A DNA stretch of 45,006 nt from a virus (UHGV-0282798); one strand, 5' to 3'. Numbered from the stretch's first letter, positions 1,651 through 42,083 are shown. The notes: a model not told the origin generated them from the sequence alone. Translations and numbers: made by a program.

Positions 1651-1830
1651 TCATTTTAAGAATCTCAGCGCGGCGTCCGCGATACCGGACACCACTAGCC
1701 CGAAAAACATAGGCCACCAGATATATCTTGGCAGATTGGTAAATGTTTCGGGCTTAGTCCAGAAAGCCATTAAAAACGCGAGCCAAAACACCATATAACT
1801 AATGTTGCTAAGTAATTCTAAAATATTCAT
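1651..1830 (-). CDS. Small membrane protein (59 aa)
   Basis: Own translation MNILELLSNISYMVFWLAFLMAFWTKPETFTNLPRYIWWPMFFGLVVSGIADAALRFLK; two hydrophobic segments; ATGA overlap with upstream gene; below ORF-track size cutoff. Confidence 0.3.
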   Translation of the reverse strand: MNILELLSNISYMVFWLAFLMAFWTKPETFTNLPRYIWWPMFFGLVVSGIADAALRFLK

Positions 1831-2063
1831 TCCCCGCTCTCCCCTTTAGCAATGCGTTGCTCAGTTTTAGTGATACCCCGGCGCGTGAATAACACCGGGC
1901 TGGTCTTAACGTGCGTCATCAGACGGTTGTTATAAATTACGTGGCGCTCGCAATCAACGTCTTTGCTGTACTTCGCAATCGTCATTTCGTTTATGCCAGT
2001 TTGCCGGCATGTCTCGGCCATCGTGCCGAATTCTTTAATCAGGTTCGGAATGCTGGTAATCAA
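1827..2063 (-). CDS. Small helix-turn-helix-like protein
   Basis: ORF track; segment MAETCRQTGINEMTIAKYSK looks like an HTH; start may be the internal Met. Confidence 0.4.
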   Translation of the reverse strand: MITSIPNLIKEFGTMAETCRQTGINEMTIAKYSKDVDCERHVIYNNRLMTHVKTSPVLFTRRGITKTEQRIAKGESGE

Positions 2064-7161: not shown

Positions 7162-7190
7162 TCTGTCTCTCCACTCGTTGGTGTAAATGA

Positions 7191-7219
7191 ATAGTAGCCT
7201 ATTCTATCTCAGTGTGCAA
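7191..7219 (-). promoter_or_regulatory. Sigma70-type promoter (minus strand) TTGCAC-17-TACTAT with AATAG-N4-CTATT dyad
   Basis: Reverse complement: TTGCAC (7214-7219), 17-bp spacer, TACTAT (7191-7196); dyad AATAGTAGCCTATT at 7190-7203. Confidence 0.45.
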
Positions 7220-7525
7220 GTAAATTTTATTGGCGTGTTATAGAATCTATGAACGACAGTAACGCGCGCTCCGCTTCTGCTTCTCTTTCTTCAAGCGACC
7301 AGGTAGCGGATTCCTCTGTTGCCGTTGCTATATCTGTTTTCACATCAATCATCGTGTTGATTAACGCGATTAGTCGTTCGGCCTGTTCTTTAGTAATCAT
7401 TGTTGCATCTCCTGCAATAGTCGCTTCTATTGTTGCGTTTGGTGAAATAGAACAAAAATGAGAAAAATGATACGCTGCTGTGTAGCAGCGTAAGTCACAA
7501 AGCCAAATAGTAACCTATTGACCTG

Positions 7526-8672: not shown

Positions 8673-8697
8673 CCCTCTGTCTCGTTTCGATAAGTGA

Positions 8698-8726
8698 ATA
8701 GTATCCTATTATGTTTGGGTGTGCAA
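8698..8726 (-). promoter_or_regulatory. Sigma70-type promoter (minus strand) TTGCAC-17-TACTAT with dyad
   Basis: Reverse complement: TTGCAC (8721-8726), 17 bp, TACTAT (8698-8703); dyad AATAGTATCCTATT at 8697-8710; about 30 bp upstream of the first minus-strand early gene. Confidence 0.45.
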
Positions 8727-8899
8727 GAGAATAGTTACGTTGCCGTTGTGATTCTTTCGTTTCTTAAAAGAGTACGCAACGCAGGGGGTGGGCATTAGCC
8801 CACCCCAGCGGAGTGAAGTACTCTCTACCTTGCTCACGGCAACTATAGAAACTTTTAATTATCAGTGACTTGGGTATTTAGGCGGGATTAACAATAGAC

Positions 8900-9000
8900 T
8901 ATGGCCCTTCCGAATGCGGGCAGCGACACTACACTCAGTGCTAACGCACCGCTCCGTTCTCCTGCCGCACCGCGGTCGCTTGTTCATACTTCACAAGCTC
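8900..9000 (-). ncRNA. Conserved structured 5-prime leader RNA or small RNA (putative), copy 1
   Basis: About 100 nt downstream of the repeat promoter are conserved between copies with compensatory changes in two hairpins; the only ORF through it is not conserved in copy 2. Confidence 0.35.
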
Positions 9001-9006
9001 AGGTGG

Positions 9007-9035
9007 AGCTTAGCATATTTTTAGTGAAAAGTCAA
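9007..9035 (-). promoter_or_regulatory. Sigma70 promoter inside repeat copy 1 (minus strand): TTGACT-17-TGcTAAGCT
   Basis: Reverse complement: -35 TTGACT (9030-9035), 17-bp spacer, extended -10 TGC TAAGCT (9007-9015); identical in copy 2. Confidence 0.5.
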
Positions 9036-9130: not shown

Positions 9131-9274
9131 ATGAAGATTTGCCAGATGTGTAGGAAAGAAAAAGAAGAAGGTGCATTCCTTAAACGTTATGACAGAAAAG
9201 GAACGCGTAGTTATTGCCGTGAATGTTTCAATGCATACCGCAAACAATTAAGAGAGGCTAAGAAGAATGCATAA
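9131..9274 (+). CDS. Small Zn-ribbon protein (47 aa)
   Basis: Own translation MKICQMCRKEKEEGAFLKRYDRKGTRSYCRECFNAYRKQLREAKKNA (CxxC ... CxxC); GAGGGG RBS; below ORF-track cutoff. Confidence 0.4.
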   Translation: MKICQMCRKEKEEGAFLKRYDRKGTRSYCRECFNAYRKQLREAKKNA

Positions 9275-12042: not shown

Positions 12043-12070
12043 GTAAAAAGAAAGGGGCGTTAAGCCCCTT
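12041..12070 (-). terminator. Intrinsic terminator for the repressor gene
   Basis: Stem AAGGGGC (12052-12058) / GCCCCTT (12064-12070); on the minus strand it is followed by UCUUUUUACC. Lies between the convergent primase and repressor genes. Confidence 0.5.
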
Positions 12071-12275
12071 CACCCAACGCCAGCCACTTGGCGTCTACTT
12101 GCAGCACTTCCGCCAGTTTAAACAGCGTTGCCGGGCGGACGTCCTGAGTTACCCCGAGTGCAAGCTGGTTAATCGCGCCCTGGGAAACGCCCGCAAGGAC
12201 CGCCAGACGGCGCTGGGAGATACCGAGTTCTTTACGGCGTTGCTCTACACGGATGCCTAGTTCAGATGGTTGCAT
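12060..12275 (-). CDS. XRE-family HTH transcriptional regulator (Cro/CI-like)
   Basis: 71 aa; QRRKELGISQRRLAVLAGVSQGAINQLALG is a classic XRE HTH. Confidence 0.75.
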   Translation of the reverse strand: MQPSELGIRVEQRRKELGISQRRLAVLAGVSQGAINQLALGVTQDVRPATLFKLAEVLQVDAKWLALGEGA

Positions 12276-12305
12276 GTCAATTACTCCTTAGTCAGTTGAT
12301 ATGTG

Positions 12306-12368
12306 AATAGTACCATATTAATTATTTTAGAAAAGCCCATTGACACGTGAATAGTTCGCTATTATAGT
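12306..12368 (+). promoter_or_regulatory. Promoter TTGACA-17-TATAGT with two AATAG-N4-CTATT dyads
   Basis: -35 TTGACA 12340-12345, -10 TATAGT 12363-12368; dyads AATAGTACCATATT (12306-12319) and AATAGTTCGCTATT (12350-12363); divergent from the repressor start at 12275. Confidence 0.5.
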
Positions 12369-12400
12369 TAGCCTATACCAAACGAGAGGAGAGAAACAAA

Positions 12401-13121: not shown

Positions 13122-13610
13122 ATGGATTGGCATGAGATATTCGACTATGACCGCGCCACAGGAAAATTGTATTGGAAAATACAGCCATCTCATGCGGTTA
13201 AGCCGGGTGAAGAGGCTGGAAGTGTGGGAACTGAGGGTTATGTAGATGTTGGTTTTGCAGGCCGTTTATATAAGGCGCATCGCATTATATGGGATATGAT
13301 GAACACTGACGATAAACTAACGCCGAACCACCAAATAGACCACATAAACCATATCAGAACGGATAATAGGATAGAAAATTTAAGGAAGGTACACCACTGT
13401 GACAACGCCAAAAATCAAAGCATGCGCGTAGACAATACCTCAGGTGTCGCGGGAGTATACTTCGACCGAACTAATAGAAAATGGAGGGCCCGCATTAGGG
13501 CGAGTGGCACGACCATTTGTTTGGGGAGATACGATAGTTTAGAAGAAGCCGCATGCGCACGCCAGAAAGCAGAAGAGATTTACGGGTTTCACAAAAATCA
13601 TGGGGGGTAA
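13122..13610 (+). CDS. HNH-AP2 homing-type endonuclease
   Basis: HQIDHINHIRTDNRIENLR (HNH) followed by AGVYFDRTNRKWRARIRASGTTICLGRYDSLEEAACARQKAEEIYG (AP2). ORF track starts at 12984; ATG 13122 (MDWHEIF) with RBS avoids overlap. Confidence 0.75.
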   Translation: MDWHEIFDYDRATGKLYWKIQPSHAVKPGEEAGSVGTEGYVDVGFAGRLYKAHRIIWDMMNTDDKLTPNHQIDHINHIRTDNRIENLRKVHHCDNAKNQSMRVDNTSGVAGVYFDRTNRKWRARIRASGTTICLGRYDSLEEAACARQKAEEIYGFHKNHGG

Positions 13611-14855: not shown

Positions 14856-15088
14856 TTCGTAAAATGTTCGGAGTAATTGGCGGTTTTGTAGCGTTTTTAA
14901 CCTATCACGCTCTAATACTGCCGCTGGTTATAATGCTTCTTCCGTTTTTCGTGTATACCGCCTTTAAGTGCAGGAAAATAGAACTAGAGGATTTGGTGTA
15001 CGCCAAAGAAGTTGAGTGGGTGCGTAATTTGAAGTGGCCCAACGTATACCTAACTATAGTTGAGAAAATAACTGGCTGGAAGGGTTGA
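14852..15088 (+). CDS. Small membrane protein
   Basis: ORF track begins at 14822; ATG 14852 has RBS GAGGAGG. Hydrophobic segments FGVIGGFVAFLTYHALILPLVIMLLPFFVYTAF. Confidence 0.4.
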   Translation: MIRKMFGVIGGFVAFLTYHALILPLVIMLLPFFVYTAFKCRKIELEDLVYAKEVEWVRNLKWPNVYLTIVEKITGWKG

Positions 15089-15113
15089 CACCTGAATAGC
15101 AAGCTATTATAGT
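15085..15113 (+). promoter_or_regulatory. Promoter TTGACA-17-TATAGT with perfect dyad
   Basis: -35 15085-15090, -10 15108-15113; dyad AATAGCAAGCTATT 15095-15108; about 55 bp upstream of the SSB gene. Confidence 0.5.
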
Positions 15114-15167
15114 TCTAATCACTGGCCGGGCAGCTTCCCGGAGTAAACTGAAAAGCGAGAAATCAAG

Positions 15168-18611: not shown

Positions 18612-18892
18612 CCCCGGAAGGCAAGATTCAGAAATACGCAAAAGAGAGGTTCGAGGCCCTGGGCGGCCTCGTTAGAAAATTGTCGTACGAAAATAGAGTA
18701 GGCGCTCCTGACCTGCTGGTGATTCTCCCCTGGAGCATCGTCTGGTTCGTCGAGGTGAAGAAAGACGAAAACACGAAGCCAGACCCGCACCAGCTACGTG
18801 AGCACGAGCGGATGCGCAAACGCGGTGCAAATGTTTTTGTCGTTGGTTCGTTTAAACAGGTTGACGACCTAATAGCGAACTATTATAGTTAG
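18608..18892 (+). CDS. VRR-NUC domain nuclease
   Basis: GAPDLLVIL ... FVEVKK ... Q pattern typical of VRR-NUC. Track ORF 18593; ATG 18608 (MTPEGKIQ). Confidence 0.55.
   Translation: MTPEGKIQKYAKERFEALGGLVRKLSYENRVGAPDLLVILPWSIVWFVEVKKDENTKPDPHQLREHERMRKRGANVFVVGSFKQVDDLIANYYS
18861..18889 (+). promoter_or_regulatory. Promoter TTGACG-17-TATAGT with dyad
   Basis: -35 18861-18866, -10 18884-18889; dyad AATAGCGAACTATT 18871-18884; lies inside the 3-prime end of the VRR-NUC gene. Confidence 0.45.
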
Positions 18893-21211: not shown

Positions 21212-21396
21212 AATTGTTTTGTGTTAGCTCAAACGTACCTGAGTTCAAAGAGGGTGAAGAATATCTGGCCTACTATAACGGCATTGAGTACCGCGTAATT
21301 TATGATGACTCGGGCTACATAATCGCCGATTACGATGATGACTCGGGCTACATAATCGCCGAGTTCTTTAACGACGGTTTGGTGGAGTTCGAATGA
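21208..21396 (+). CDS. Small protein with internal tandem duplication
   Basis: ORF track; protein contains DDSGYIIA twice. Confidence 0.4.
   Translation: MKLFCVSSNVPEFKEGEEYLAYYNGIEYRVIYDDSGYIIADYDDDSGYIIAEFFNDGLVEFE
21304..21360 (+). repeat. Perfect 24-bp direct repeat separated by 9 bp
   Basis: gatgactcgggctacataatcgcc at 21304-21327 and 21337-21360. Confidence 0.8.
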
Positions 21397-21533: not shown

Positions 21534-21538
21534 AGAAA

Positions 21539-21568
21539 AGGCCCCAAACGGGGCCTTAGTTTTAGATA
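21539..21568. terminator. Bidirectional terminator hairpin between convergent blocks
   Basis: Stem AGGCCCC (21539-21545) / GGGGCCT (21550-21556), loop aaac, then TAGTTTTA; near-identical to the hairpin at 34422-34441. Confidence 0.6.
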
Positions 21569-32013: not shown

Positions 32014-32120
32014 TCTTTGATCCTTTGGTTAAGAGGTTACAGGTTAAGGTTGACGCGCCAGACGGGAACCACCCGCTTTTCGTGTGCGACACTAGGCGCA
32101 AACTTATTCTAGCACACTAC

Positions 32121-32149
32121 TTGCACACCCCAATATAATAGGGTACTAT
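32121..32149 (+). promoter_or_regulatory. Promoter TTGCAC-17-TACTAT with dyad (island promoter)
   Basis: -35 32121-32126, -10 32144-32149; dyad AATAGGGTACTATT 32137-32150; same TTGCAC/TACTAT class as 7191 and 8698. Confidence 0.5.
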
Positions 32150-32179
32150 TCACCTACACCAACAATGGAGGGATTTAAA

Positions 32180-33540: not shown

Positions 33541-34007
33541 AGTACCTTGATGTTTCAAAACAATTTAAATACTGCCCTGATACGGGGCAGGTTACCAGGA
33601 TATCTACTGGTGCTGAGGTTGGTACGGTTGGTGTAAGAGGATATCTGTGCTGCGGTATGGGTGGTAAAACAGTATATGTCCACCGCGTAGCATGGTGTCT
33701 TTATAATAAATGTGACTTAGACAGGAAAACACAAATAGACCACATAAACCATAACAGGCTAGACAATAGAATAGAAAATCTACGCGCCACCGACAATACA
33801 GGGAACAGTAAAAATAAAACTATGAGAAAGATAAATAAATCCGGGGCTACAGGTGTAAGTTTCCACAAAGCCGCGGGTAAGTGGCGCGCGTTTATAAAAG
33901 TTAACTACAAACAAGTGCATTTAGGGCTTTACGACGATTTTGATGTAGCGGTTGCCGCGCGTAAAGCCGCTGAGAGTAAATACGGTTTTCATGAAAACCA
34001 TGAGTAG
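33537..34007 (+). CDS. HNH-AP2 homing-type endonuclease
   Basis: HRVAWCLYN ... QIDHINHNRLDNRIENLR (HNH) and GVSFHKAAGKWRAFIKVNYKQVHLGLYDDFDVAVAARKAAESKYG (AP2); paralog of 13122-13610. Confidence 0.75.
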   Translation: MKYLDVSKQFKYCPDTGQVTRISTGAEVGTVGVRGYLCCGMGGKTVYVHRVAWCLYNKCDLDRKTQIDHINHNRLDNRIENLRATDNTGNSKNKTMRKINKSGATGVSFHKAAGKWRAFIKVNYKQVHLGLYDDFDVAVAARKAAESKYGFHENHE

Positions 34008-34249: not shown

Positions 34250-34418
34250 AAATATTATGAAAACGATATATGTAATCCGTGTATACGACGAAGAATGGGA
34301 CGAGTGGGTTGATATTTACGCTGTAGGTAGTAAGGAAGAGGCCTCTAAAGAGATGGCAGAACGGAGTGACCGAGGTCAGTTAACTAACTTCTACGAAATG
34401 CCATTCAAAAGTGAGTAA
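34200..34418 (+). CDS. Hypothetical small protein
   Basis: ORF track; true start probably an internal ATG (MSENIMKT or MKTIYVIRV). Confidence 0.35.
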   Translation: MKVWRSYESTGVILMSENIMKTIYVIRVYDEEWDEWVDIYAVGSKEEASKEMAERSDRGQLTNFYEMPFKSE

Positions 34419-34421
34419 GAA

Positions 34422-34448
34422 AAGGCCCCGAAAGGGGCCTTAGTTTTA
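34422..34448. terminator. Terminator hairpin closing the plus-strand island
   Basis: Stem AAGGCCCC (34422-34429) / GGGGCCTT (34434-34441), loop gaaa, then AGTTTTA; sits between the island and the convergent major tail gene. Confidence 0.6.
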
Positions 34449-37493: not shown

Positions 37494-38006
37494 TTAGCCC
37501 CGGTACACGTTAAAAGAGAAGCCATTGTTAAGACCACCACACAGTAACGGGCGCAAGGCGTCGTCGGCGGCAGTAATAGCGGTAGTAGCCCCACTGCTGC
37601 CGTTGTTGAAGTATGTCACGGTAACTGCACCTTCCACGCGCTCAGTCTGCACGGAGCGACCGTCCGAGTTAGCACGCACTTCTGTGCCCGCCCCATACGT
37701 GGCGGACGCGATTACCTGCGCAAGAATTACCTGTTTCGGAATGGCATTGTTAGCTACCGGGAATCCGTTTAACGTTACCCCCGTGCGAGGGTACGCCAGA
37801 GGCTGTTCGGCGGATACGCGGCGACCGCACATCTGCGGTTCTGCAAGCCCTACGTAAGTAGCGCCGTTGCGCAGAGCTACTTCGGCGGCGGTATCGTCTT
37901 CCGGTAGCTCAAGGCCATAATTAGCCGCTAACGCGCGGGCGTCAACCAGACTAATGTAACTGTCGGCGTTAGGTACTATCGACCCATCTTCCACGATTAG
38001 CGGCAT
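37494..38006 (-). CDS. Head-tail connector / head completion protein (putative)
   Basis: N-terminus MPLIVEDGSIVPNADSYISLVDA is typical of connector-type proteins; position downstream of capsid genes. Confidence 0.4.
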   Translation of the reverse strand: MPLIVEDGSIVPNADSYISLVDARALAANYGLELPEDDTAAEVALRNGATYVGLAEPQMCGRRVSAEQPLAYPRTGVTLNGFPVANNAIPKQVILAQVIASATYGAGTEVRANSDGRSVQTERVEGAVTVTYFNNGSSGATTAITAADDALRPLLCGGLNNGFSFNVYRG

Positions 38007-38947: not shown

Positions 38948-39997
38948 TTAAGCACCGACACCAGTTACCAGGAAGGCAATCGGTACATGCTTACGCTCAA
39001 CAACGCGGTTCCAGTTGGAGGCGTTCGCCAGGTCCTGCCAGGAAGCAGAGCGTGCGACAGTCTCGGTGCCGTTGCCGGTGATTACCGCGCTGGTGAAGCT
39101 GTAGCCCAGTGGGTGCAGCAACCAGGTCTTACGGGTCCACAGGGTTTCAACGCCGCCGCCGTTACCGCGAGACGCTTCACGCTCGTATTCCAGCGGGTTT
39201 GACGGATTACCTTCACCGTAACCGATAGCGCCGTTACCGAAGATGGTGGAGATGAACTTACGGCTAGGACCAGTACCGACTACGGTCATGCTGTCGTCAA
39301 CAATCACGCGGTAGCCCTGGTAGGTGGCGAACATGGTGTTGTTGTCAGCGTCTTTGATGAAGTCAATAAGCTGCTGCTTACGGGCCTGCGCATAAACGAA
39401 ACTGTGCATCGCGATAGCACCCAGTACTTCACCACCGTTACCCATCAGAGCATCGCCCATGGTCTGGGTAGCGTCGATGAATGCGCCCGCGTCGAAGCCC
39501 AGAGTCGCGGACACGTCTACTACCATGTCGTTCTGCTCGTGGTAAGCATCGGTCGCGGCAACGTTGTCGTTGTACAGGCCGAGCGCAGTGGCAATCAGAC
39601 GGCGTTGTGCCTGACGCTGCCAGAAGTTATCCAGACGGGACGCTACAGATTGCAGCGGGTTCTGGCTGGTCAGTTCGACAGTCAGGTCAGCCTGGCCAAA
39701 ACCTTCGTTCAGGTACGCAACGCGCGCCATCATCTCACCGGTCTGCACGTTACGCGGGGTTGCGATGTCCTGGTATACGTCGTTCGAGTAGTTTGGCTCG
39801 ATAGAGGTATCAATCGCTTTCCAGAAAGGAATATTAGCGACGTTGGACGGGCCACGAGCAATCTCGGCAGCGTACGGGGTCGGGGTAAGGATACCGGACT
39901 GGAAGAACGCGGTTTTTTCTACCGGGTCTTCTGTCATGTAAGACGCCAGGACCGGGATGTTGCCAGTTACGATATCGCCGATAGTGGTAATTGCCAT
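38948..39997 (-). CDS. Major capsid protein (putative)
   Basis: 349 aa directly downstream of scaffold; strong RBS GAGGAAATAATA before the ATG; positional call. Confidence 0.6.
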   Translation of the reverse strand: MAITTIGDIVTGNIPVLASYMTEDPVEKTAFFQSGILTPTPYAAEIARGPSNVANIPFWKAIDTSIEPNYSNDVYQDIATPRNVQTGEMMARVAYLNEGFGQADLTVELTSQNPLQSVASRLDNFWQRQAQRRLIATALGLYNDNVAATDAYHEQNDMVVDVSATLGFDAGAFIDATQTMGDALMGNGGEVLGAIAMHSFVYAQARKQQLIDFIKDADNNTMFATYQGYRVIVDDSMTVVGTGPSRKFISTIFGNGAIGYGEGNPSNPLEYEREASRGNGGGVETLWTRKTWLLHPLGYSFTSAVITGNGTETVARSASWQDLANASNWNRVVERKHVPIAFLVTGVGA

Positions 39998-39999
39998 TA

Positions 40000-40755
40000 T
40001 TATTTCCTCAGGGCTTTAAGTTGCCGTTCAAATTCGGCAGGGTTCGATTTATACAGAGCTAAACGCTCCGCTTCACTCATGTCTTTAAACGCTGGTGCGG
40101 CCCCGCCGCCTTTGCTACCGGAAGCCCCGCCGCCGGAAGCTGCATTTGCTTTAATCAAATGCGAAAACGCTTTGTGTTCACGCAGGTATTTGCGGAACTG
40201 TTCCGGGTCAGTCGTGATTACGTTGCCGTCTGCTCCGACAAACTTAGTAACCACGTCATCGCCTTCAAACTCGGTCTTAACGAACGGAGCCAGGATGTCC
40301 ACTGCTTCCGGGGTGATAAAGTCACCCGCGAAAGAGCCTAACACCGCTTTACGTTCGCTGCCGAGGATACGCTCCGCCATTCTGGAGATGCGGCCGTCTT
40401 TCTCGGCTAACACCGGGTCATACTGGCTACGAATCGTCTTTTCAAACTCGTCCATCTTACCAGCGGCTTTTAACGCCTCCTGGTGTGCGCGCTGCCGTTC
40501 TTCTTCGGCCTCTTTTGCTTTGCGAGCGGCTTCTTTCTTCTCCGCCAGCAATGCTTCCTGATTAGCCTTAAGCCCGGCTACTTCTTTCTCAATCAGCGCC
40601 TGAACTTCTTCAGCGGTGAACATTTTCGGCGCATCACCGCCGCCAGATTTATCTTCTGTCCCAGCTTCTTCCTGGAACGGATAACGTAAAAAACGATTCA
40701 TAGTCAGTATGTCCCCTGGACGTTGGAATCCGGGCCACCCGGATTTACATGTCAA
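40000..40755 (-). CDS. Capsid scaffolding protein (putative)
   Basis: Charged helical protein (EEVQALIEKEVAGLKANQEALLAEKKEAARKAKEAEEERQRAHQEALKAAGK) immediately upstream of the capsid gene; likely start ATG 40699-40701 (track start is TTG). Confidence 0.55.
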   Translation of the reverse strand: MTCKSGWPGFQRPGDILTMNRFLRYPFQEEAGTEDKSGGGDAPKMFTAEEVQALIEKEVAGLKANQEALLAEKKEAARKAKEAEEERQRAHQEALKAAGKMDEFEKTIRSQYDPVLAEKDGRISRMAERILGSERKAVLGSFAGDFITPEAVDILAPFVKTEFEGDDVVTKFVGADGNVITTDPEQFRKYLREHKAFSHLIKANAASGGGASGSKGGGAAPAFKDMSEAERLALYKSNPAEFERQLKALRK

Positions 40756-40783
40756 GAATAAATTATTCCAACATGCAAGGCAA

Positions 40784-41047
40784 CTATTCCAGAATATTCC
40801 TCACGTAATCCTGCAACATGAACACTTTCAGCCTCAGTTGCCGTACACATTCAGCGTTCTGAACGTCGATAGCCAAATCCTCGTCAGCATCACTACTTGG
40901 CGGTGCCAGCTTGCACGGCGGCTGCATCATTGTCGTATCCGGGGATGGAATTGGCGTTTGCGACGGCGCGGGACTTGAGTTGCACGCGCTCAGGGTCAAA
41001 AGTGCACACGCTGCGGCTAGGCGTTTTAATGTACTTAACGACTTCAC
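40784..41047 (-). CDS. o-spanin (Rz1-like lipoprotein)
   Basis: Signal peptide with lipobox LTLSAC, Pro-rich mature part; +1-frame gene overlapping the 3-prime half of the Rz-like gene. Confidence 0.6.
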   Translation of the reverse strand: MKSLSTLKRLAAACALLTLSACNSSPAPSQTPIPSPDTTMMQPPCKLAPPSSDADEDLAIDVQNAECVRQLRLKVFMLQDYVRNILE

Positions 41048-41279
41048 GGGTAATCACCTCTGATTTCGTCTTGCCTTCGTTGTCGGCGGCTGCGGCCTTT
41101 GACTCATCCTGCTGCTGCCGTTGTGTCTTCTTAGCTAACTCAGCCTTCGCTTTTTGGGTTTGTTCGGTAACGAGGTCAAGCCGTCCCGCATCCCAGCCGC
41201 GGTTGTATTGGTACCCCCCGTACAGCCATACCGTAAGCAAGCCTGCCGCCGTTAGTGTTGCTGTGTTGCTTAGATTCAT
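40893..41279 (-). CDS. i-spanin (Rz-like)
   Basis: N-terminal TM (TATLTAAGLLTVWLYGGY) then a charged helical periplasmic region; overlaps the Rz1-like ORF. Confidence 0.55.
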   Translation of the reverse strand: MNLSNTATLTAAGLLTVWLYGGYQYNRGWDAGRLDLVTEQTQKAKAELAKKTQRQQQDESKAAAADNEGKTKSEVITREVVKYIKTPSRSVCTFDPERVQLKSRAVANANSIPGYDNDAAAVQAGTAK

Positions 41280-41397
41280 GTTTCCCCTTTCTCGATAAGT
41301 AAAGCCCCGCCTTAAAGCGGGGCGCTAGTCCTTATCATTTAAACATAGAAACGGCGTAATCTCAGTAAACCAGTTACTCTTTACACAAGCAAAAGAG

Positions 41398-41532
41398 TAT
41401 GGCCCTTCCGAACGCGTCAGCGTAACTACACTCAGGACTTACGTCCCGCTCCGTTACCTGCCCGCGCCGCGGTCGCTCGTTCATACTTCACAAGCTCAGG
41501 TGGAGCTTATCATATTTTTAGTGAAAAGTCAA
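41398..41532. repeat. Repeat copy 2 of the ~135-bp promoter-plus-leader element
   Basis: Aligns with 8900-9035; lies between the terminator at 41591-41617 and the Rz start at 41279. Confidence 0.85.
41504..41532 (-). promoter_or_regulatory. Sigma70 promoter inside repeat copy 2 (minus strand): TTGACT-17-TGaTAAGCT
   Basis: Reverse complement: -35 41527-41532, -10 41504-41509 with upstream TG. Confidence 0.5.
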
Positions 41533-41590
41533 CTATTCGAATAGTTTATTCCAACATTTACAATTGATTGGAATAACTGGAATAATTACG

Positions 41591-41617
41591 AGCCATAAAA
41601 AGCCCCTTTCGGGGCTT
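41591..41617 (-). terminator. Intrinsic terminator (mainly minus strand)
   Basis: Stem AAGCCCC (41600-41606) / GGGGCTT (41611-41617), loop tttc; on the minus strand it is followed by UUUUAUGG. Confidence 0.55.
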
Positions 41618-41621
41618 CAGT

Positions 41622-42083
41622 TTATTCTGGCTTAGTCACCTTCGCCGCTTTGCTTACACCCTCTACACCATCGGCATCGGTAACTTTAACGAAGTATTCA
41701 CCGACCACATTAACCGTCAGAGACAGAGCTTCTTCTGGGGCGTTGACTACTTCCTTACCGTCTTTGTACCAGGTCAGCACATACGGCGCTTTGCCCGCCT
41801 TAACTTCGACAGTGATAGTTGCGCTGCCGTCTGCCAGTTCCGCATCCTGCGGTTGCACAGAGAAATACACGTCGCCAGCGTCCGCCAGATACGGAATCTC
41901 ATAAAGCATACCCGCCGCGGGCAGCGCGATGCCTGTTTTATCCGCAAACGGCATATCGTCTACCGGTGTACCGAGTACACTTTCGTCTTCAATAAACACC
42001 ACGTTCTCACCAGAGCCGGATACACGGGCGTACTGGACTACGCGGCGCGCGGGTACATCGGTTACTTTGAAAAAGCCCATCAT
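41622..42083 (-). CDS. Ig-like domain protein
   Basis: GKAPYVLTWYKDGKEV ... GEYFVKVTD looks like an I-set/Big-type domain; position after the Mu-F-like gene. Confidence 0.45.
   Translation of the reverse strand: MMGFFKVTDVPARRVVQYARVSGSGENVVFIEDESVLGTPVDDMPFADKTGIALPAAGMLYEIPYLADAGDVYFSVQPQDAELADGSATITVEVKAGKAPYVLTWYKDGKEVVNAPEEALSLTVNVVGEYFVKVTDADGVEGVSKAAKVTKPE

What the first reader, a model, noticed from the sequence alone, without database searches (positions are those of the whole stretch)
41533..41587. TTATTCCAACAT / GGAATAA repeat cluster upstream of late-gene starts
Immediately upstream of copy 2 of the repeat there is a CTATTCGAATAG palindrome (41533-41544) and a 9-bp inverted repeat TTATTCCAA / TTGGAATAA (41546-41554 and 41568-41576), followed by another GGAATAA (41579-41585). 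The 12-mer TTATTCCAACAT recurs at 40763-40774 just upstream of the scaffold start, again next to GGAATA-type repeats. A 12-bp exact match is unlikely by chance in 45 kb, so this looks like a binding motif for a late regulator acting on the capsid and spanin operons.
Basis: seen in the sequence. Interest (0 to 1): 0.5.

Follow-up and report, generated by a model that had tools for sequence, protein, structure and literature searches.

The report
Conserved regulator sites at two late promoters
The repeated GGAATA/TATTCC words are real, evolutionarily conserved protein-binding-type sites next to the promoters of the phage's spanin (lysis) and scaffold/capsid genes, and they occur only in relatives that also encode a small NinH-like DNA-binding protein, which makes that protein the likely regulator.

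Summary
The window is a Kagunavirus-like (Guernseyvirinae) phage genome whose late genes lie on the minus strand. Every word sits at the stated coordinates. The statistical argument fails: about 62 exact 12-mer pairs are expected by chance in 45 kb, and TTATTCC is not enriched genome-wide. The clustering is still non-random, with two clusters of three TATTCC/GGAATA hexamers within 45 nt (0 of 500 simulations).

Read on the minus strand, the finding is two direct TATTCCA half-sites, about 17 AT-rich bases, then a dyad TGGAATA-N3-TATTC. It lies upstream of a conserved extended -10 promoter (TTGACT, 17 nt, TGnTAAGCT). That promoter drives a structured leader of about 200 nt and the spanin genes. 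A second dyad overlaps the -10 of the scaffold/capsid promoter.

Across three genera only these words and the promoter hexamers are conserved. The CTATTCGAATAG palindrome and the ATGT of the 12-mer are not. Relatives lacking the words carry other repeats at the same place, and they also lack the NinH-like HTH gene (window 1827-2063).

Best reading: an operator/activator-site array for a phage-encoded regulator, probably the NinH-like protein. The direction of regulation is unresolved and nothing has been tested experimentally. It is a new member of a known kind, of moderate interest.

The parts
41578..41584 (-). Direct half-site 1, TATTCCA, about -84 relative to the predicted start
   Evidence: Conserved in all three groups as TATTCCARTTATTCC.
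41569..41575 (-). Direct half-site 2, TATTCCA, 9 nt after half-site 1, about -75
41554..41568 (-). AT-rich spacer between the direct pair and the dyad. Its sequence is not conserved between groups. On the + strand it holds TTTACA, a -35-like hexamer for a possible divergent promoter.
41537..41553 (-). Dyad TGGAATA-AAC-TATTCGA, centre 41545, about -48
   Evidence: One mismatch to TGGAATANNNTATTCCA. Only two sites in the window have 2 mismatches or fewer. GGAATA and TATTC are conserved in all three groups.
41533..41544 (.). Palindrome CTATTCGAATAG. It overlaps the right half of the dyad and occurs only in the Kagunavirus group.
   Evidence: The other groups read TTATTCAAAAAG and TTATTCCAAAAG here.
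41527..41532 (-). Promoter P_A -35 hexamer TTGACT
   Evidence: Read. The other groups have TAGACT and TGGACT at the same place.
41504..41512 (-). Promoter P_A extended -10, TGA-TAAGCT, after a 17-nt spacer. Predicted start is about 41497.
   Evidence: TG and TA..CT are invariant while the n of TGn varies (A/C/G) among 46 sequences. It falls below the threshold of the consensus scanner. No start-site data exist.
41280..41497 (-). Structured leader of about 200 nt ahead of the spanin genes. It contains CGGAAGGGCC and overlaps the annotated 36-aa ORF 41374-41484.
   Evidence: Minus-strand fold -73 kcal/mol, z = -2.8, against -50 for the plus strand. Compensatory changes occur in 4 pairs. 1-nt indels in the ORF appear among relatives. 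No Rfam family matches.
41304..41323 (-). GC-rich hairpin at the end of the leader, terminator-like in this group only
   Evidence: In the other two groups no U tract follows the hairpin.
40784..41279 (-). i-spanin (40893-41279) and overlapping o-spanin (40784-41047)
40784..40800 (-). GGAATAT and TGGAATAG words just upstream of the P_B -35. They partly encode the o-spanin C-terminus.
   Evidence: GGAATAGTTGCCTT is also conserved where no spanin gene precedes it.
40778..40783 (-). Promoter P_B -35 hexamer TTGCCT
   Evidence: Conserved in all groups. It is kept as TTGCAT in Pantoea phage AH01.
40754..40770 (-). Dyad TGGAATA-ATT-TATTCTT. Its right half is the P_B -10 (TATTCT, 40755-40760).
   Evidence: In AH01 the -35, the 17-nt spacing and the -10 are kept, but the TGGAATA half is absent.
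40728..40744 (-). Hairpin ATCCGGGTGGCCCGGAT at the 5' end of the scaffold mRNA leader
   Evidence: Invariant core with covarying flanking pairs (AT..AT, G..C, ACAC..GTGT) across relatives.
40000..40701 (-). Scaffolding protein gene, followed by the major capsid gene at 38948-39997
1827..2063 (-). NinH-like HTH protein, 78 aa; candidate binder of the dyads
   Evidence: Pfam Phage_NinH E = 5e-5, below the curated cut-off. ORF. Co-occurrence with the dyad.
8892..9035 (-). Second copy of the P_A core promoter plus the first ~120 nt of the leader. It has no GGAATA array and sits upstream of the leftward early/lysis operon.

Best explanation
The cluster is a cis-regulatory array of binding sites for a dimeric, phage-encoded DNA-binding protein. 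The most likely binder is the NinH-like (Fis-like HTH) protein encoded at 1827-2063.

Read on the minus strand, which is the direction of the late genes, the array is:
- two direct TATTCCA half-sites at about -84 and -75;
- an AT-rich spacer;
- a 15-17 bp dyad (T)GGAATA-N3-TATTC(C) centred at about -48.

It lies upstream of a sigma-70 extended -10 promoter, P_A: -35 TTGACT at 41532-41527, a 17-nt spacer, and TGnTAAGCT at 41512-41504. P_A transcribes a structured leader of about 200 nt and then the i-/o-spanin genes.

A second copy of the dyad (40754-40770) lies inside the scaffold/major-capsid promoter P_B: -35 TTGCCT at 40783-40778, 17 nt, -10 TATTCT at 40760-40755. It overlaps the -10.

Shown by sequence comparison: the sites, their conservation, their restriction to these two promoters, and their co-occurrence with the NinH-like gene.

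Inferred: that a protein binds them, that it is the NinH-like protein, and that the promoters start where predicted.

The direction of regulation is not resolved. Geometry suggests occlusion (repression) at P_B and upstream modulation at P_A. At P_A this may be activation, because the -10 is weak there and the -35 is also poor in two of the three genera.
For: 1. Identity and context. The window is about 90% identical to Kagunaviruses. The order on the minus strand is Ig-like head gene, terminator, cluster, leader, spanins, scaffold, capsid.

2. Conservation. In 46 distinct sequences from three diverged groups, the only columns whose group consensus agrees are TATTCCA(R)TTATTCC, GGAATA, TATTC, the -35 core, TG and TA..CT. 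The DNA on both sides differs between groups.

3. P_B block. The block GGAATAGTTGCCTT-N6-(G)TGGAATAATTTATTCT, together with the leader hairpin, stays about 90% identical where the neighbouring spanin gene is about 70% identical or is replaced.

4. Restriction. The dyad (2 mismatches or fewer) occurs only at these two places in the window, in phage Sciku and in Cornellvirus SP-031. The direct pair occurs once per genome.

5. Need for a promoter. In SP-031, Golestan and phiEap-2 the genes just upstream lie on the opposite strand. The spanin unit therefore needs its own promoter.

6. Flexible arrangement. In Hafnia phage TS33 the whole array is inverted relative to the promoter. phiEap-2 carries extra copies. 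This is expected of protein-binding sites rather than core promoter elements.

7. Lineage-specific replacement. Klebsiella phage VLCpiS11a, the L056 group and Pantoea phage AH01 carry other repeated words at the same position: TTGCGAGT, TTTGCGAAA and TTGATAG. AH01 keeps the P_B -35, spacing and -10 but lacks the TGGAATA half.

8. Candidate binder. Of 34 small proteins tested, only the NinH-like one is present wherever the dyad is and absent where it is not. All 41 near-complete IMG/VR contigs with the gene carry the P_B dyad. The 4 contigs without the gene, from two lineages, lack it.

9. Published binding signature. Lambda NinH is a homodimer that prefers a 15-bp G-N13-C pseudo-palindrome (PMC7166090). 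The consensus dyad GGAATAWWTTATTCC is 15 bp with G and C at its ends.

10. Clustering statistics.
Against: - No experimental data exist on binding, transcription start sites or timing. The one Kagunavirus transcriptome found is too coarse.
- Both promoters fall below the threshold of the consensus scanner and rest on conservation alone.
- The NinH link rests on only two independent lineages that lack both features. In VLCpiS11a the whole small-gene block is swapped, so relatedness is a confounder.
- The Pfam NinH match is below the curated cut-off.
- The dyad does not carry the pyrimidine-purine steps at positions -4/-3 and +3/+4 described for NinH and Fis sites. In this window the right-hand end base is G (P_A) or T (P_B), not C.
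- Two of the three half-sites of the scaffold cluster lie in o-spanin coding sequence.
- The same P_A core promoter works, presumably, without the array at 8892-9035, so the array is not essential for the core promoter.
Confidence: 0.55

Rival explanations
1. The sites are real regulatory sites but are bound by a host (Enterobacterales) transcription factor or nucleoid protein such as Fis, not by a phage protein.
For: The half-sites are identical in phages of Escherichia, Salmonella, Enterobacter and Hafnia, although the phage early-promoter operators differ between genera. The dyad has the overall shape of a Fis-type site: 15 bp, G/C ends and an AT-rich core.
Against: phiEap-2 (host Klebsiella/Enterobacter aerogenes) has the array, while VLCpiS11a (host K. 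pneumoniae) has a different word at the same place. That is hard to explain with conserved host factors. Presence tracks a phage gene. I could not match the dyad to any E. coli factor consensus I know (my own recall, not a database test). The Fis-type YR steps are absent.
Confidence: 0.13
2. The words are promoter elements themselves rather than operator sites. TGGAATAAT reads as an extended -10 (TGnAATAAT). With TTTACA it forms a divergent plus-strand promoter in the cluster. In the scaffold promoter it is an alternative -10. No dedicated regulator is involved.
For: The scanner's best promoter-like site in the 6.5-kb region is the plus-strand TTTACA-18-AATAAT with TG, at 41557-41586. The same arrangement is present in the Jersey-type group. 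Many relatives have opposite-strand genes directly upstream that would need a promoter.
Against: In this window and in the Jersey-type group the plus-strand promoter would fire straight into a terminator about 10 nt away, yet the array is fully conserved. This reading does not explain the first direct repeat or the dyad at -48. In Golestan-type phages the -10-like T is lost while the array is kept. AH01 keeps P_B without TGGAATA.
Confidence: 0.12
3. The array is mainly a recombination boundary: a conserved linker at which gene cassettes are exchanged or inserted. Any regulatory role is secondary.
For: The DNA immediately upstream of the array is mosaic: a terminator, an early-type promoter plus opposite-strand genes, or a PAPS reductase gene. 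In phiEap-2 an opposite-strand gene plus terminator is flanked by inverted copies GGAATAACTGGAATAA / TTATTCCAGTTATTCC. In TS33 the array is inverted.
Against: This does not explain the fixed relation to the promoters, the second dyad inside the scaffold promoter, or the co-occurrence with a DNA-binding protein. No recombinase is associated with the sites.
Confidence: 0.08
4. The array is the DNA loading site of a Q/AlpA-type antiterminator. RNA polymerase starting at P_A would make a short ~200-nt RNA ending at the 41304-41323 hairpin, unless the factor lets it read into the spanin and head genes, as at lambda P_R'-6S RNA-tR'.
For: The layout resembles it: promoter, untranslated RNA of about 200 nt, terminator-like hairpin, then lysis genes. 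A -10-like repeat sits at about -3..+5 (TGAGCT here, TACGCT in the Jersey-type group). The core promoter plus the start of the leader is duplicated ahead of the holin/endolysin operon. The Q and AlpA requirements were taken from PMC9371919.
Against: The array is upstream of the -35, not between -35 and -10. It is absent from the duplicated copy. The leader hairpin lacks a U tract in the two other genera. The window's -10-like repeat lacks the essential A at position 2. No Q- or AlpA-like protein was found among the small proteins examined.
Confidence: 0.07

Closest known systems
Fis sites upstream of and within promoters, and the lambda NinH 'Fis mimic' (PMC7166090)
   Same: A small dimeric HTH protein and a 15-bp AT-rich pseudo-palindrome with G/C at its ends. 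Sites can lie upstream of a promoter (activation, as at rrnB P1; my own knowledge) or over the core promoter (repression). The phage encodes a NinH-like protein whose presence tracks the sites.
   Different: No physiological targets are reported for NinH in the paper read. The half-site here is much better defined (GGAATA) than the degenerate NinH/Fis consensus. It lacks their YR steps at -4/-3 and +3/+4. It is accompanied by two direct half-sites. Binding is untested.
Phage phi29 protein p4 and similar dual-function phage regulators (lambda CI, Mu Mor/C, P2 Ogr) - from my own knowledge
   Same: A small phage protein binds inverted repeats upstream of one promoter and over another. This coordinates a switch between transcription units transcribed by the host sigma-70 polymerase.
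   Different: There is no sequence or family relationship. Site positions (-48, -75, -84 and -14) differ from the classical ones: p4 at -82, Ogr at -55, Mor/C at about -43. The direction of regulation here is unknown.
Lambdoid Cro/CI operators
   Same: A 15-17 bp dyad overlaps the -10 of a promoter (P_B).
   Different: The phage's Cro-like HTH_3 protein (12063-12275) is also present in genomes that lack the dyad. It more plausibly belongs with the separate early-promoter palindrome TGAATAG-N4-CTATTA.
Lambda P_R'-qut-6S RNA-tR' and P. aeruginosa AlpA/PalpB antitermination modules (PMC9371919)
   Same: A promoter, then a short non-coding RNA, then a hairpin, then lysis genes.
   Different: Position of the binding element, U tract of the terminator, pause element and Q-like protein were not met or were inconclusive (see the membership test).

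Membership tests
Sigma-70 extended -10 promoter (P_A) | TG one base upstream of the -10 hexamer | tested here: met
   TGA-TAAGCT at 41512-41504. TG is invariant and the n varies among 46 relatives.
Sigma-70 extended -10 promoter (P_A) | -10 hexamer with A at position 2 and T at position 6 | tested here: met
   TAAGCT, TACGCT and TAACCT in the three groups. Only 3 of 6 match the consensus, so the scanner did not list it.
Sigma-70 extended -10 promoter (P_A) | Mapped transcription start | not testable with these tools
   No 5'-end data. The published Kagunavirus RNA-seq gives gene-level timing only.
Fis/NinH-type binding site | 15-bp pseudo-palindrome with G at -7 and C at +7 (G-N13-C) | tested here: inconclusive
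   Met by the family consensus and by the SP-031-type group (L043/L046/L049), TS33 and phiEap-2 copies (GGAATAAATTATTCC, GGAATAATTTATTCC). In this window the right end is G (P_A) or T (P_B).
Fis/NinH-type binding site | Pyrimidine-purine steps at -4/-3 and +3/+4 | tested here: not met
   The dyad has A-T at these positions. The criterion comes from PMC7166090.
Fis/NinH-type binding site | Bound by the NinH-like protein | not testable with these tools
   Only co-occurrence is available.
NinH protein family (Pfam PF06322) for the candidate binder | Score above the curated Pfam cut-off | tested here: not met
   23.5 bits against a cut-off of 29.8, E = 5e-5, covering profile positions 7-56 of 60. 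RefSeq and other annotators call relatives NinH.
Q/AlpA-type antitermination module | Binding element between the -35 and -10 of the regulated promoter | tested here: not met
   At P_A the array lies at -41 to -87, upstream of the -35.
Q/AlpA-type antitermination module | -10-like pause element in the initially transcribed region | tested here: inconclusive
   TGAGCT at about -1..+5 lacks the A at position 2. The Jersey-type group has TACGCT at about -3..+3. The third group has none.
Q/AlpA-type antitermination module | Intrinsic terminator between the promoter and the regulated genes | tested here: inconclusive
   A hairpin plus a short U tract is present here. The hairpin has no U tract in the other two groups.
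Cro/CI-type operator | Site co-varies with the phage HTH_3 (Cro-like) protein | tested here: not met
   The Cro-like protein is present in AH01 and VLCpiS11a, which lack the dyad.
Any Rfam RNA family (for the leader downstream of P_A) | Match at or near the gathering score | tested here: not met
   No match at the gathering threshold over the window. Only chance-level hits appeared at E up to 10.

The most novel reading that the evidence does not exclude
The NinH-like 'Fis mimic' is the dedicated regulator of the spanin and scaffold/capsid promoters in Guernseyvirinae, acting through the GGAATA-N3-TATTC dyads and the direct half-sites. Regulator and operator words travel together as an exchangeable pair, so other lineages have swapped in different words (TTGCGAGT, TTGATAG) with different, still unknown, regulators. 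This would give the NinH family its first physiological targets and function, and would define how late and lysis genes are timed in a large group of therapeutic-candidate phages that lack their own RNA polymerase.
Probability: 0.35. Interest if true: 0.6.

Novelty: new member of a known kind. Interest (0 to 1): 0.4.

Why it matters
Guernseyvirinae (Kagunavirus, Jerseyvirus, Cornellvirus) are among the most often isolated E. coli and Salmonella phages proposed for therapy and biocontrol. In the literature I could search, nothing describes how they control late and lysis gene expression.

The analysis defines two concrete promoters and a short, testable operator motif. It names a candidate regulator from a protein family (NinH) that has a known DNA-binding activity but no known biological role.

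If confirmed, it would give a simple handle for engineering the timing of lysis and capsid production. It would also be an example of regulator/operator pairs being exchanged between phage lineages. If the sites turn out to be bound by a host factor, or to be only promoter elements, the finding is an ordinary piece of promoter architecture.

Tried and rejected
- Rfam, at the gathering threshold on the whole window and at E up to 10 on 40600-41700: nothing credible, so the leader is not a described RNA family.
Fourteen specified bases are too few for that collection.
- Consensus promoter scan: lists neither P_A nor P_B, because both fall below 9 of 12 matches. It lists only a plus-strand site in the cluster.
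- The 36-aa ORF 41374-41484, annotated 'hypothetical protein' in relatives, as the thing being regulated: rejected as coding. The reasons are 1-nt indels among close relatives, a frameshifted second copy, and a different sequence in other genera.
- Reading TTGACA (40750-40755) as the scaffold -35: rejected. The -10 would then fall in the invariant GC hairpin and has no A2/T6 in any group. TTGCCT-17-TATTCT is conserved everywhere, including in AH01.
- HTH_17 protein of Sciku (gene 052) as the binder: absent from this window and from other genera. Proteins 066/067/068: present in AH01, which lacks the sites. AP2-like 061: absent from TS33, which has them.
- A distant NinH-like protein in Klebsiella phage EKq1: no dyads in the 22 kb examined, but its recognition helix differs, so this is uninformative.
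- The apparent exception L051 (sites present, NinH-like not found by the pattern scan): a false negative, since tblastn finds the gene at 59% identity in L267.
- The TerL-anchored locus set: most loci without the NinH-like gene do not reach the spanin region, so they were not counted as evidence.
- The Kagunavirus K1B4 time-course RNA-seq paper: three coarse classes only, with NinH and capsid both 'middle'.
- Matching the dyad to E. coli factor consensus sequences (ArgR, Fur, CpxR, TyrR, RcsB, DnaA, IHF) from memory: none fits. This was not a database test.

Full report
**What the window is.** The 1.1 kb around the finding is 89-91% identical to Kagunaviruses (K1G, K1ind1-3, Sciku, Golestan) and 80-90% identical to many Salmonella Jersey-type phages; 214 phage records match. 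In the annotated relative Sciku the local order, read in the direction of the genes (the window's minus strand), is:
- portal, head morphogenesis protein, Ig/Hoc-like protein, terminator;
- a 36-aa 'hypothetical protein';
- i-spanin and o-spanin;
- scaffolding protein, major capsid protein, terminator.

Everything must therefore be read on the minus strand. The finding lies between the terminator of the Ig-like gene (41600-41617) and the spanin genes.

**Checking the observation.** All words are at the stated coordinates.

- The window contains 220 exact direct 12-mer pairs, and shuffles give about 62.
- TTATTCC occurs 9 times against 5.2 expected, and 10 of 100 shuffles reach 9.
- The 12-mer with up to two mismatches occurs 6 times against 3.85 expected.

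Clustering is what stands out. Six of the 27 TATTCC/GGAATA hexamers lie in two stretches of under 50 nt. Of 500 first-order Markov simulations, one had one such cluster and none had two. Even with the local 28-33% G+C composition, P is about 5e-6 or lower for each stretch.

**Anatomy on the minus strand.** Cluster A reads:

cgtaat TATTCCA gt TATTCCA atcaattgtaaatgt TGGAATA aac TATTCGA atag TTGACT tttcactaaaaatatga TAAGCT ccacctGagc

That is:
- two direct half-sites (41584-41578 and 41575-41569);
- a 15-nt AT-rich spacer;
- a 7-3-7 dyad (41553-41537);
- a -35-like TTGACT (41532-41527);
- a 17-nt spacer ending in TGn;
- TAAGCT (41509-41504).

With a start near 41497, the dyad is centred at about -48 and the direct half-sites at about -75 and -84.

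Cluster B reads:

GGAATAT tc TGGAATAG TTGCCT tgcatgt TGGAATA att TATTCT TGACATGtaaATCCGGGTGGCCCGGATtccaacgtccaGGGGAcatactgactATG

The best promoter reading is -35 TTGCCT (40783-40778), 17 nt, and -10 TATTCT (40760-40755). The dyad TGGAATA-ATT-TATTCTT (40770-40754) therefore overlaps the spacer and the -10. The transcript would begin a few bases before an invariant hairpin (40744-40728) and the scaffold ribosome-binding site.

In the window the dyad pattern, with two mismatches or fewer, occurs only at these two places. The direct pair occurs once.

**Comparison with relatives.** I fetched 58 IMG/VR loci through the scaffold protein and several annotated genomes. Three diverged groups carry cluster A:
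- Kagunavirus-type;
- Jersey-type;
- Cornellvirus-type, which includes Salmonella phage FSL SP-031.

Comparing the three group consensus sequences, the conserved columns are TATTCCA(R)TTATTCC, GGAATA, TATTC, the GACT of the -35, TG and TA..CT. The spacer, the DNA upstream and the transcribed DNA downstream differ. Within the Kagunavirus group the n of TGn varies (A, C or G) while TG and TAAGCT never do. That is the signature of an extended -10 promoter.

The CTATTCGAATAG palindrome is specific to one group; the others read TTATTCAAAAAG and TTATTCCAAAAG.

Cluster B, from GGAATAG through the hairpin to the start codon, stays about 90% identical where the adjacent spanin gene is about 70% identical or is replaced by an opposite-strand gene. 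The pairs flanking the hairpin covary: AT..AT, G..C, ACAC..GTGT.

In Sciku and SP-031 the dyad again occurs only at these two promoters. The extra weak hits there are a ribosome-binding site plus start codon, and the AT-rich codons of the o-spanin signal peptide.

**The units need their own promoters.** In SP-031 a PAPS-reductase gene precedes cluster A on the opposite strand, and a small opposite-strand gene precedes cluster B. In Golestan, whose arrangement most Kagunavirus-type loci share, two opposite-strand ORFs precede cluster A. phiEap-2 has an opposite-strand gene there too. The array always stays with the promoter, whatever lies upstream.

**What P_A transcribes.** Downstream of P_A lie about 200-240 nt with no conserved ORF. 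They are followed by a GC-rich hairpin, a ribosome-binding site and the i-spanin start in all three groups.
- The annotated 36-aa ORF has 1-nt indels among close relatives and is frameshifted in the second copy.
- The minus strand folds much better than the plus strand: -73 against -50 kcal/mol, z = -2.8.
- The three groups share the motif CGGAAGGGYC.
- On a 12-sequence alignment of the first 100 nt, the hairpins I proposed are 96.5% paired, with changes on both sides in 4 pairs. No shuffle of 500 reaches the observed count of such cells, and the slid controls collapse to 25-42% paired. The structure was derived from one of these sequences, so this is supportive rather than decisive.
- The hairpin before the spanin genes is terminator-like only in the Kagunavirus group.

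I therefore read the RNA as a long structured 5' leader rather than a free-standing small RNA. Rfam has no matching family.

The core promoter plus the first 78-145 nt of the leader is duplicated, without the GGAATA array, at 8892-9035. In Sciku the copy lies at 37503-37579. It sits ahead of the leftward operon that contains the holin and endolysin genes.

**Lineage-specific words and a candidate binder.** Some Guernseyvirinae lack the words altogether.
- Klebsiella phage VLCpiS11a and its IMG/VR relatives carry, at the same position, a perfect palindrome ACTCGCAAAATTTTGCGAGT plus further TTGCGAGT copies.
- The L056/L057 lineage carries three TTTGCGAAA words.
- Pantoea phage AH01 carries four TTGATAG words.

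AH01 is especially informative at the scaffold promoter. Its -35 (TTGCAT), the 17-nt spacing, the -10 (TATTCT) and everything downstream are kept. The spacer reads CGATATT instead of TGGAATA. This supports both the promoter assignment and the view that the left half-site is an add-on.

Salmonella phage TS6 has replaced cluster A with a consensus-like TTGACAC...TGTATAAT cassette but keeps the scaffold dyad. Hafnia phage TS33 has the whole array inverted relative to the promoter. phiEap-2 has two dyads at the scaffold promoter and a second, inverted array beside a terminator.

I compared 34 small non-structural proteins of Sciku with these genomes. Only the NinH-like HTH protein (window 1827-2063, 78 aa) matches the pattern.
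- It is present in SP-031, TS33, phiEap-2 and TS6 at 62-69% identity.
- It is absent from AH01 and VLCpiS11a.
- The Cro-like HTH_3 protein is present in every complete genome compared.
- Proteins 066-068 are present in AH01.

Among near-complete IMG/VR contigs, all 41 with the gene carry the scaffold dyad, and 40 of them also carry the direct pair with at most one mismatch. The 4 contigs without the gene lack both. One apparent exception was a false negative of the pattern scan.

Lambda NinH is a homodimer that bends DNA and prefers a 15-bp G-N13-C pseudo-palindrome (PMC7166090). The consensus dyad GGAATAWWTTATTCC has that length and those end bases. It lacks the described YR steps, and in this window its right end is imperfect. 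The Pfam NinH match of the window's protein is below the curated cut-off. Only two independent lineages lack both features. I therefore treat the link as a good lead, not a result.

**Mechanism.** I commit to a cis-regulatory array bound by a phage-encoded dimeric protein, most likely the NinH-like one, acting on P_A (leader and spanins) and P_B (scaffold and capsid).

The position at P_B, centred at about -14, is that of a repressor site. The positions at P_A (-48, -75, -84) combine with a weak -10, and in two genera a poor -35. Phages that lack the array have a near-consensus promoter at that place. Together these point to upstream activation or architectural bending at P_A. One protein that activates one promoter and represses another is familiar from phi29 p4 and lambda CI (my own knowledge). 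The direction at each promoter is inference only.

**Rivals.** The rivals are a host factor, promoter elements of a divergent promoter without a regulator, a recombination boundary, and a Q/AlpA-type loading site. The evidence for and against each is set out in the structured fields. The Q/AlpA analogy was tested feature by feature against PMC9371919 and mostly fails.

**Novelty.** Literature searches found no description of late or lysis gene regulation in this subfamily. One Kagunavirus paper lists a different repeat, tgAATAGTa-ccTATTat-T, as 'phage promoters' (PMC9825357). That repeat is the early-promoter palindrome family I also saw, not the GGAATA array.

The finding is a new member of a familiar kind, promoter-proximal operator or activator sites. 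It comes with a specific and testable candidate regulator.

Noticed in passing
window 8892-9035 and 41390-41532 (weaker similarity from about 8846 and 41347): A 143-190 nt repeat at 87-89% identity in the same orientation. It is a duplicated core promoter (TTGACT-17-TGnTAAGCT) plus the start of the structured leader. One copy precedes the spanins; the other precedes the leftward operon that contains holin and endolysin. In one relative (L012) the spanin copy carries the sequence variant of the other copy, which suggests exchange between the copies.
   Followed up: partly
window 41280-41497, minus strand; loci L026-L051: A structured untranslated leader of about 200 nt ahead of the spanin genes. 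It carries the motif CGGAAGGGYC, conserved across three genera, and compensatory base changes. It matches no Rfam family. Its first 95 nt are nearly invariant among Kagunavirus-type phages, more conserved than the flanking genes.
   Followed up: partly
window 7177-7222, 8687-8716, 12296-12325, 12340-12369, 15085-15114, 18861-18890, 32118-32163: A family of early-type promoters with an embedded palindrome, TGAATAG-N4-CTATTAT. There are two sub-classes: TTGACA-17-TATAGT, and a form followed by GGGGTGTGC whose orientation is ambiguous. The same repeat was reported as 'phage promoters' in fBC-Eco01 (PMC9825357). It is absent from Cornellvirus SP-031, which has a different spacer element. It may be the operator of the Cro-like protein at 12063-12275.
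   Followed up: partly
window 40728-40744, minus strand: A hairpin ATCCGGGTGGCCCGGAT a few bases after the predicted scaffold mRNA start. The core is invariant across genera, the loop base varies and the flanking pairs covary. It is probably a 5' stabilising or processing stem-loop.
   Followed up: partly
L062 35700-35935; L053 1620-1900; L056 1840-1900; L187 12040-12180: Relatives without the GGAATA words carry other repeated words at the same position upstream of the spanin leader: the ACTCGCAAAATTTTGCGAGT palindrome plus TTGCGAGT copies, TTTGCGAAA three times, and TTGATAG four times. This suggests exchangeable regulator/operator sets.
   Followed up: partly
L185 2500-2545 and 2838-2890 (Enterobacter phage phiEap-2): An opposite-strand 71-aa gene with a bidirectional terminator is flanked by two copies of the array in inverted orientation. 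The inner ends, GGAATAACTGGAATAA and TTATTCCAGTTATTCC, are exact inverted repeats. This looks like a cassette insertion or inversion at the array.
   Followed up: no
L184 22640-22720 (Hafnia phage TS33): The whole array is inverted relative to the promoter: the dyad comes first, then two GGAATAA repeats next to a new -35, TTTACT.
   Followed up: partly
window 41374-41484, minus strand: The 36-aa ORF annotated as a hypothetical protein in many relatives is probably not a gene. It has indels among close relatives, is frameshifted in the second copy, and has no counterpart in other genera.
   Followed up: partly
window 41557-41586, plus strand: The best promoter-like site in the region (TTTACA-18-AATAAT with TG) points away from the spanins, straight into the terminator at 41600-41617. 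It is conserved in the Jersey-type group. It might drive the opposite-strand genes that other relatives carry here.
   Followed up: partly
window 9131-9274, plus strand: A 47-aa ORF with two CxxC pairs (a possible zinc ribbon) directly after the first copy of the repeat. It has no Pfam match.
   Followed up: no
window 13332-13382 and 33732-33782: A 51-nt direct repeat at 84% identity (CAAATAGACCACATAAACCATA...). Not examined.
   Followed up: no
window 21302-21367: A tandem duplication of a 33-nt unit at 91% identity. Not examined.
   Followed up: no
window 21534-21564, 34418-34448, 41595-41625: Three closely related terminator hairpins (AAAAGGCCCCnAAnGGGGCCTTAGTTTTA type) at the ends of late transcription units.
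   Followed up: no
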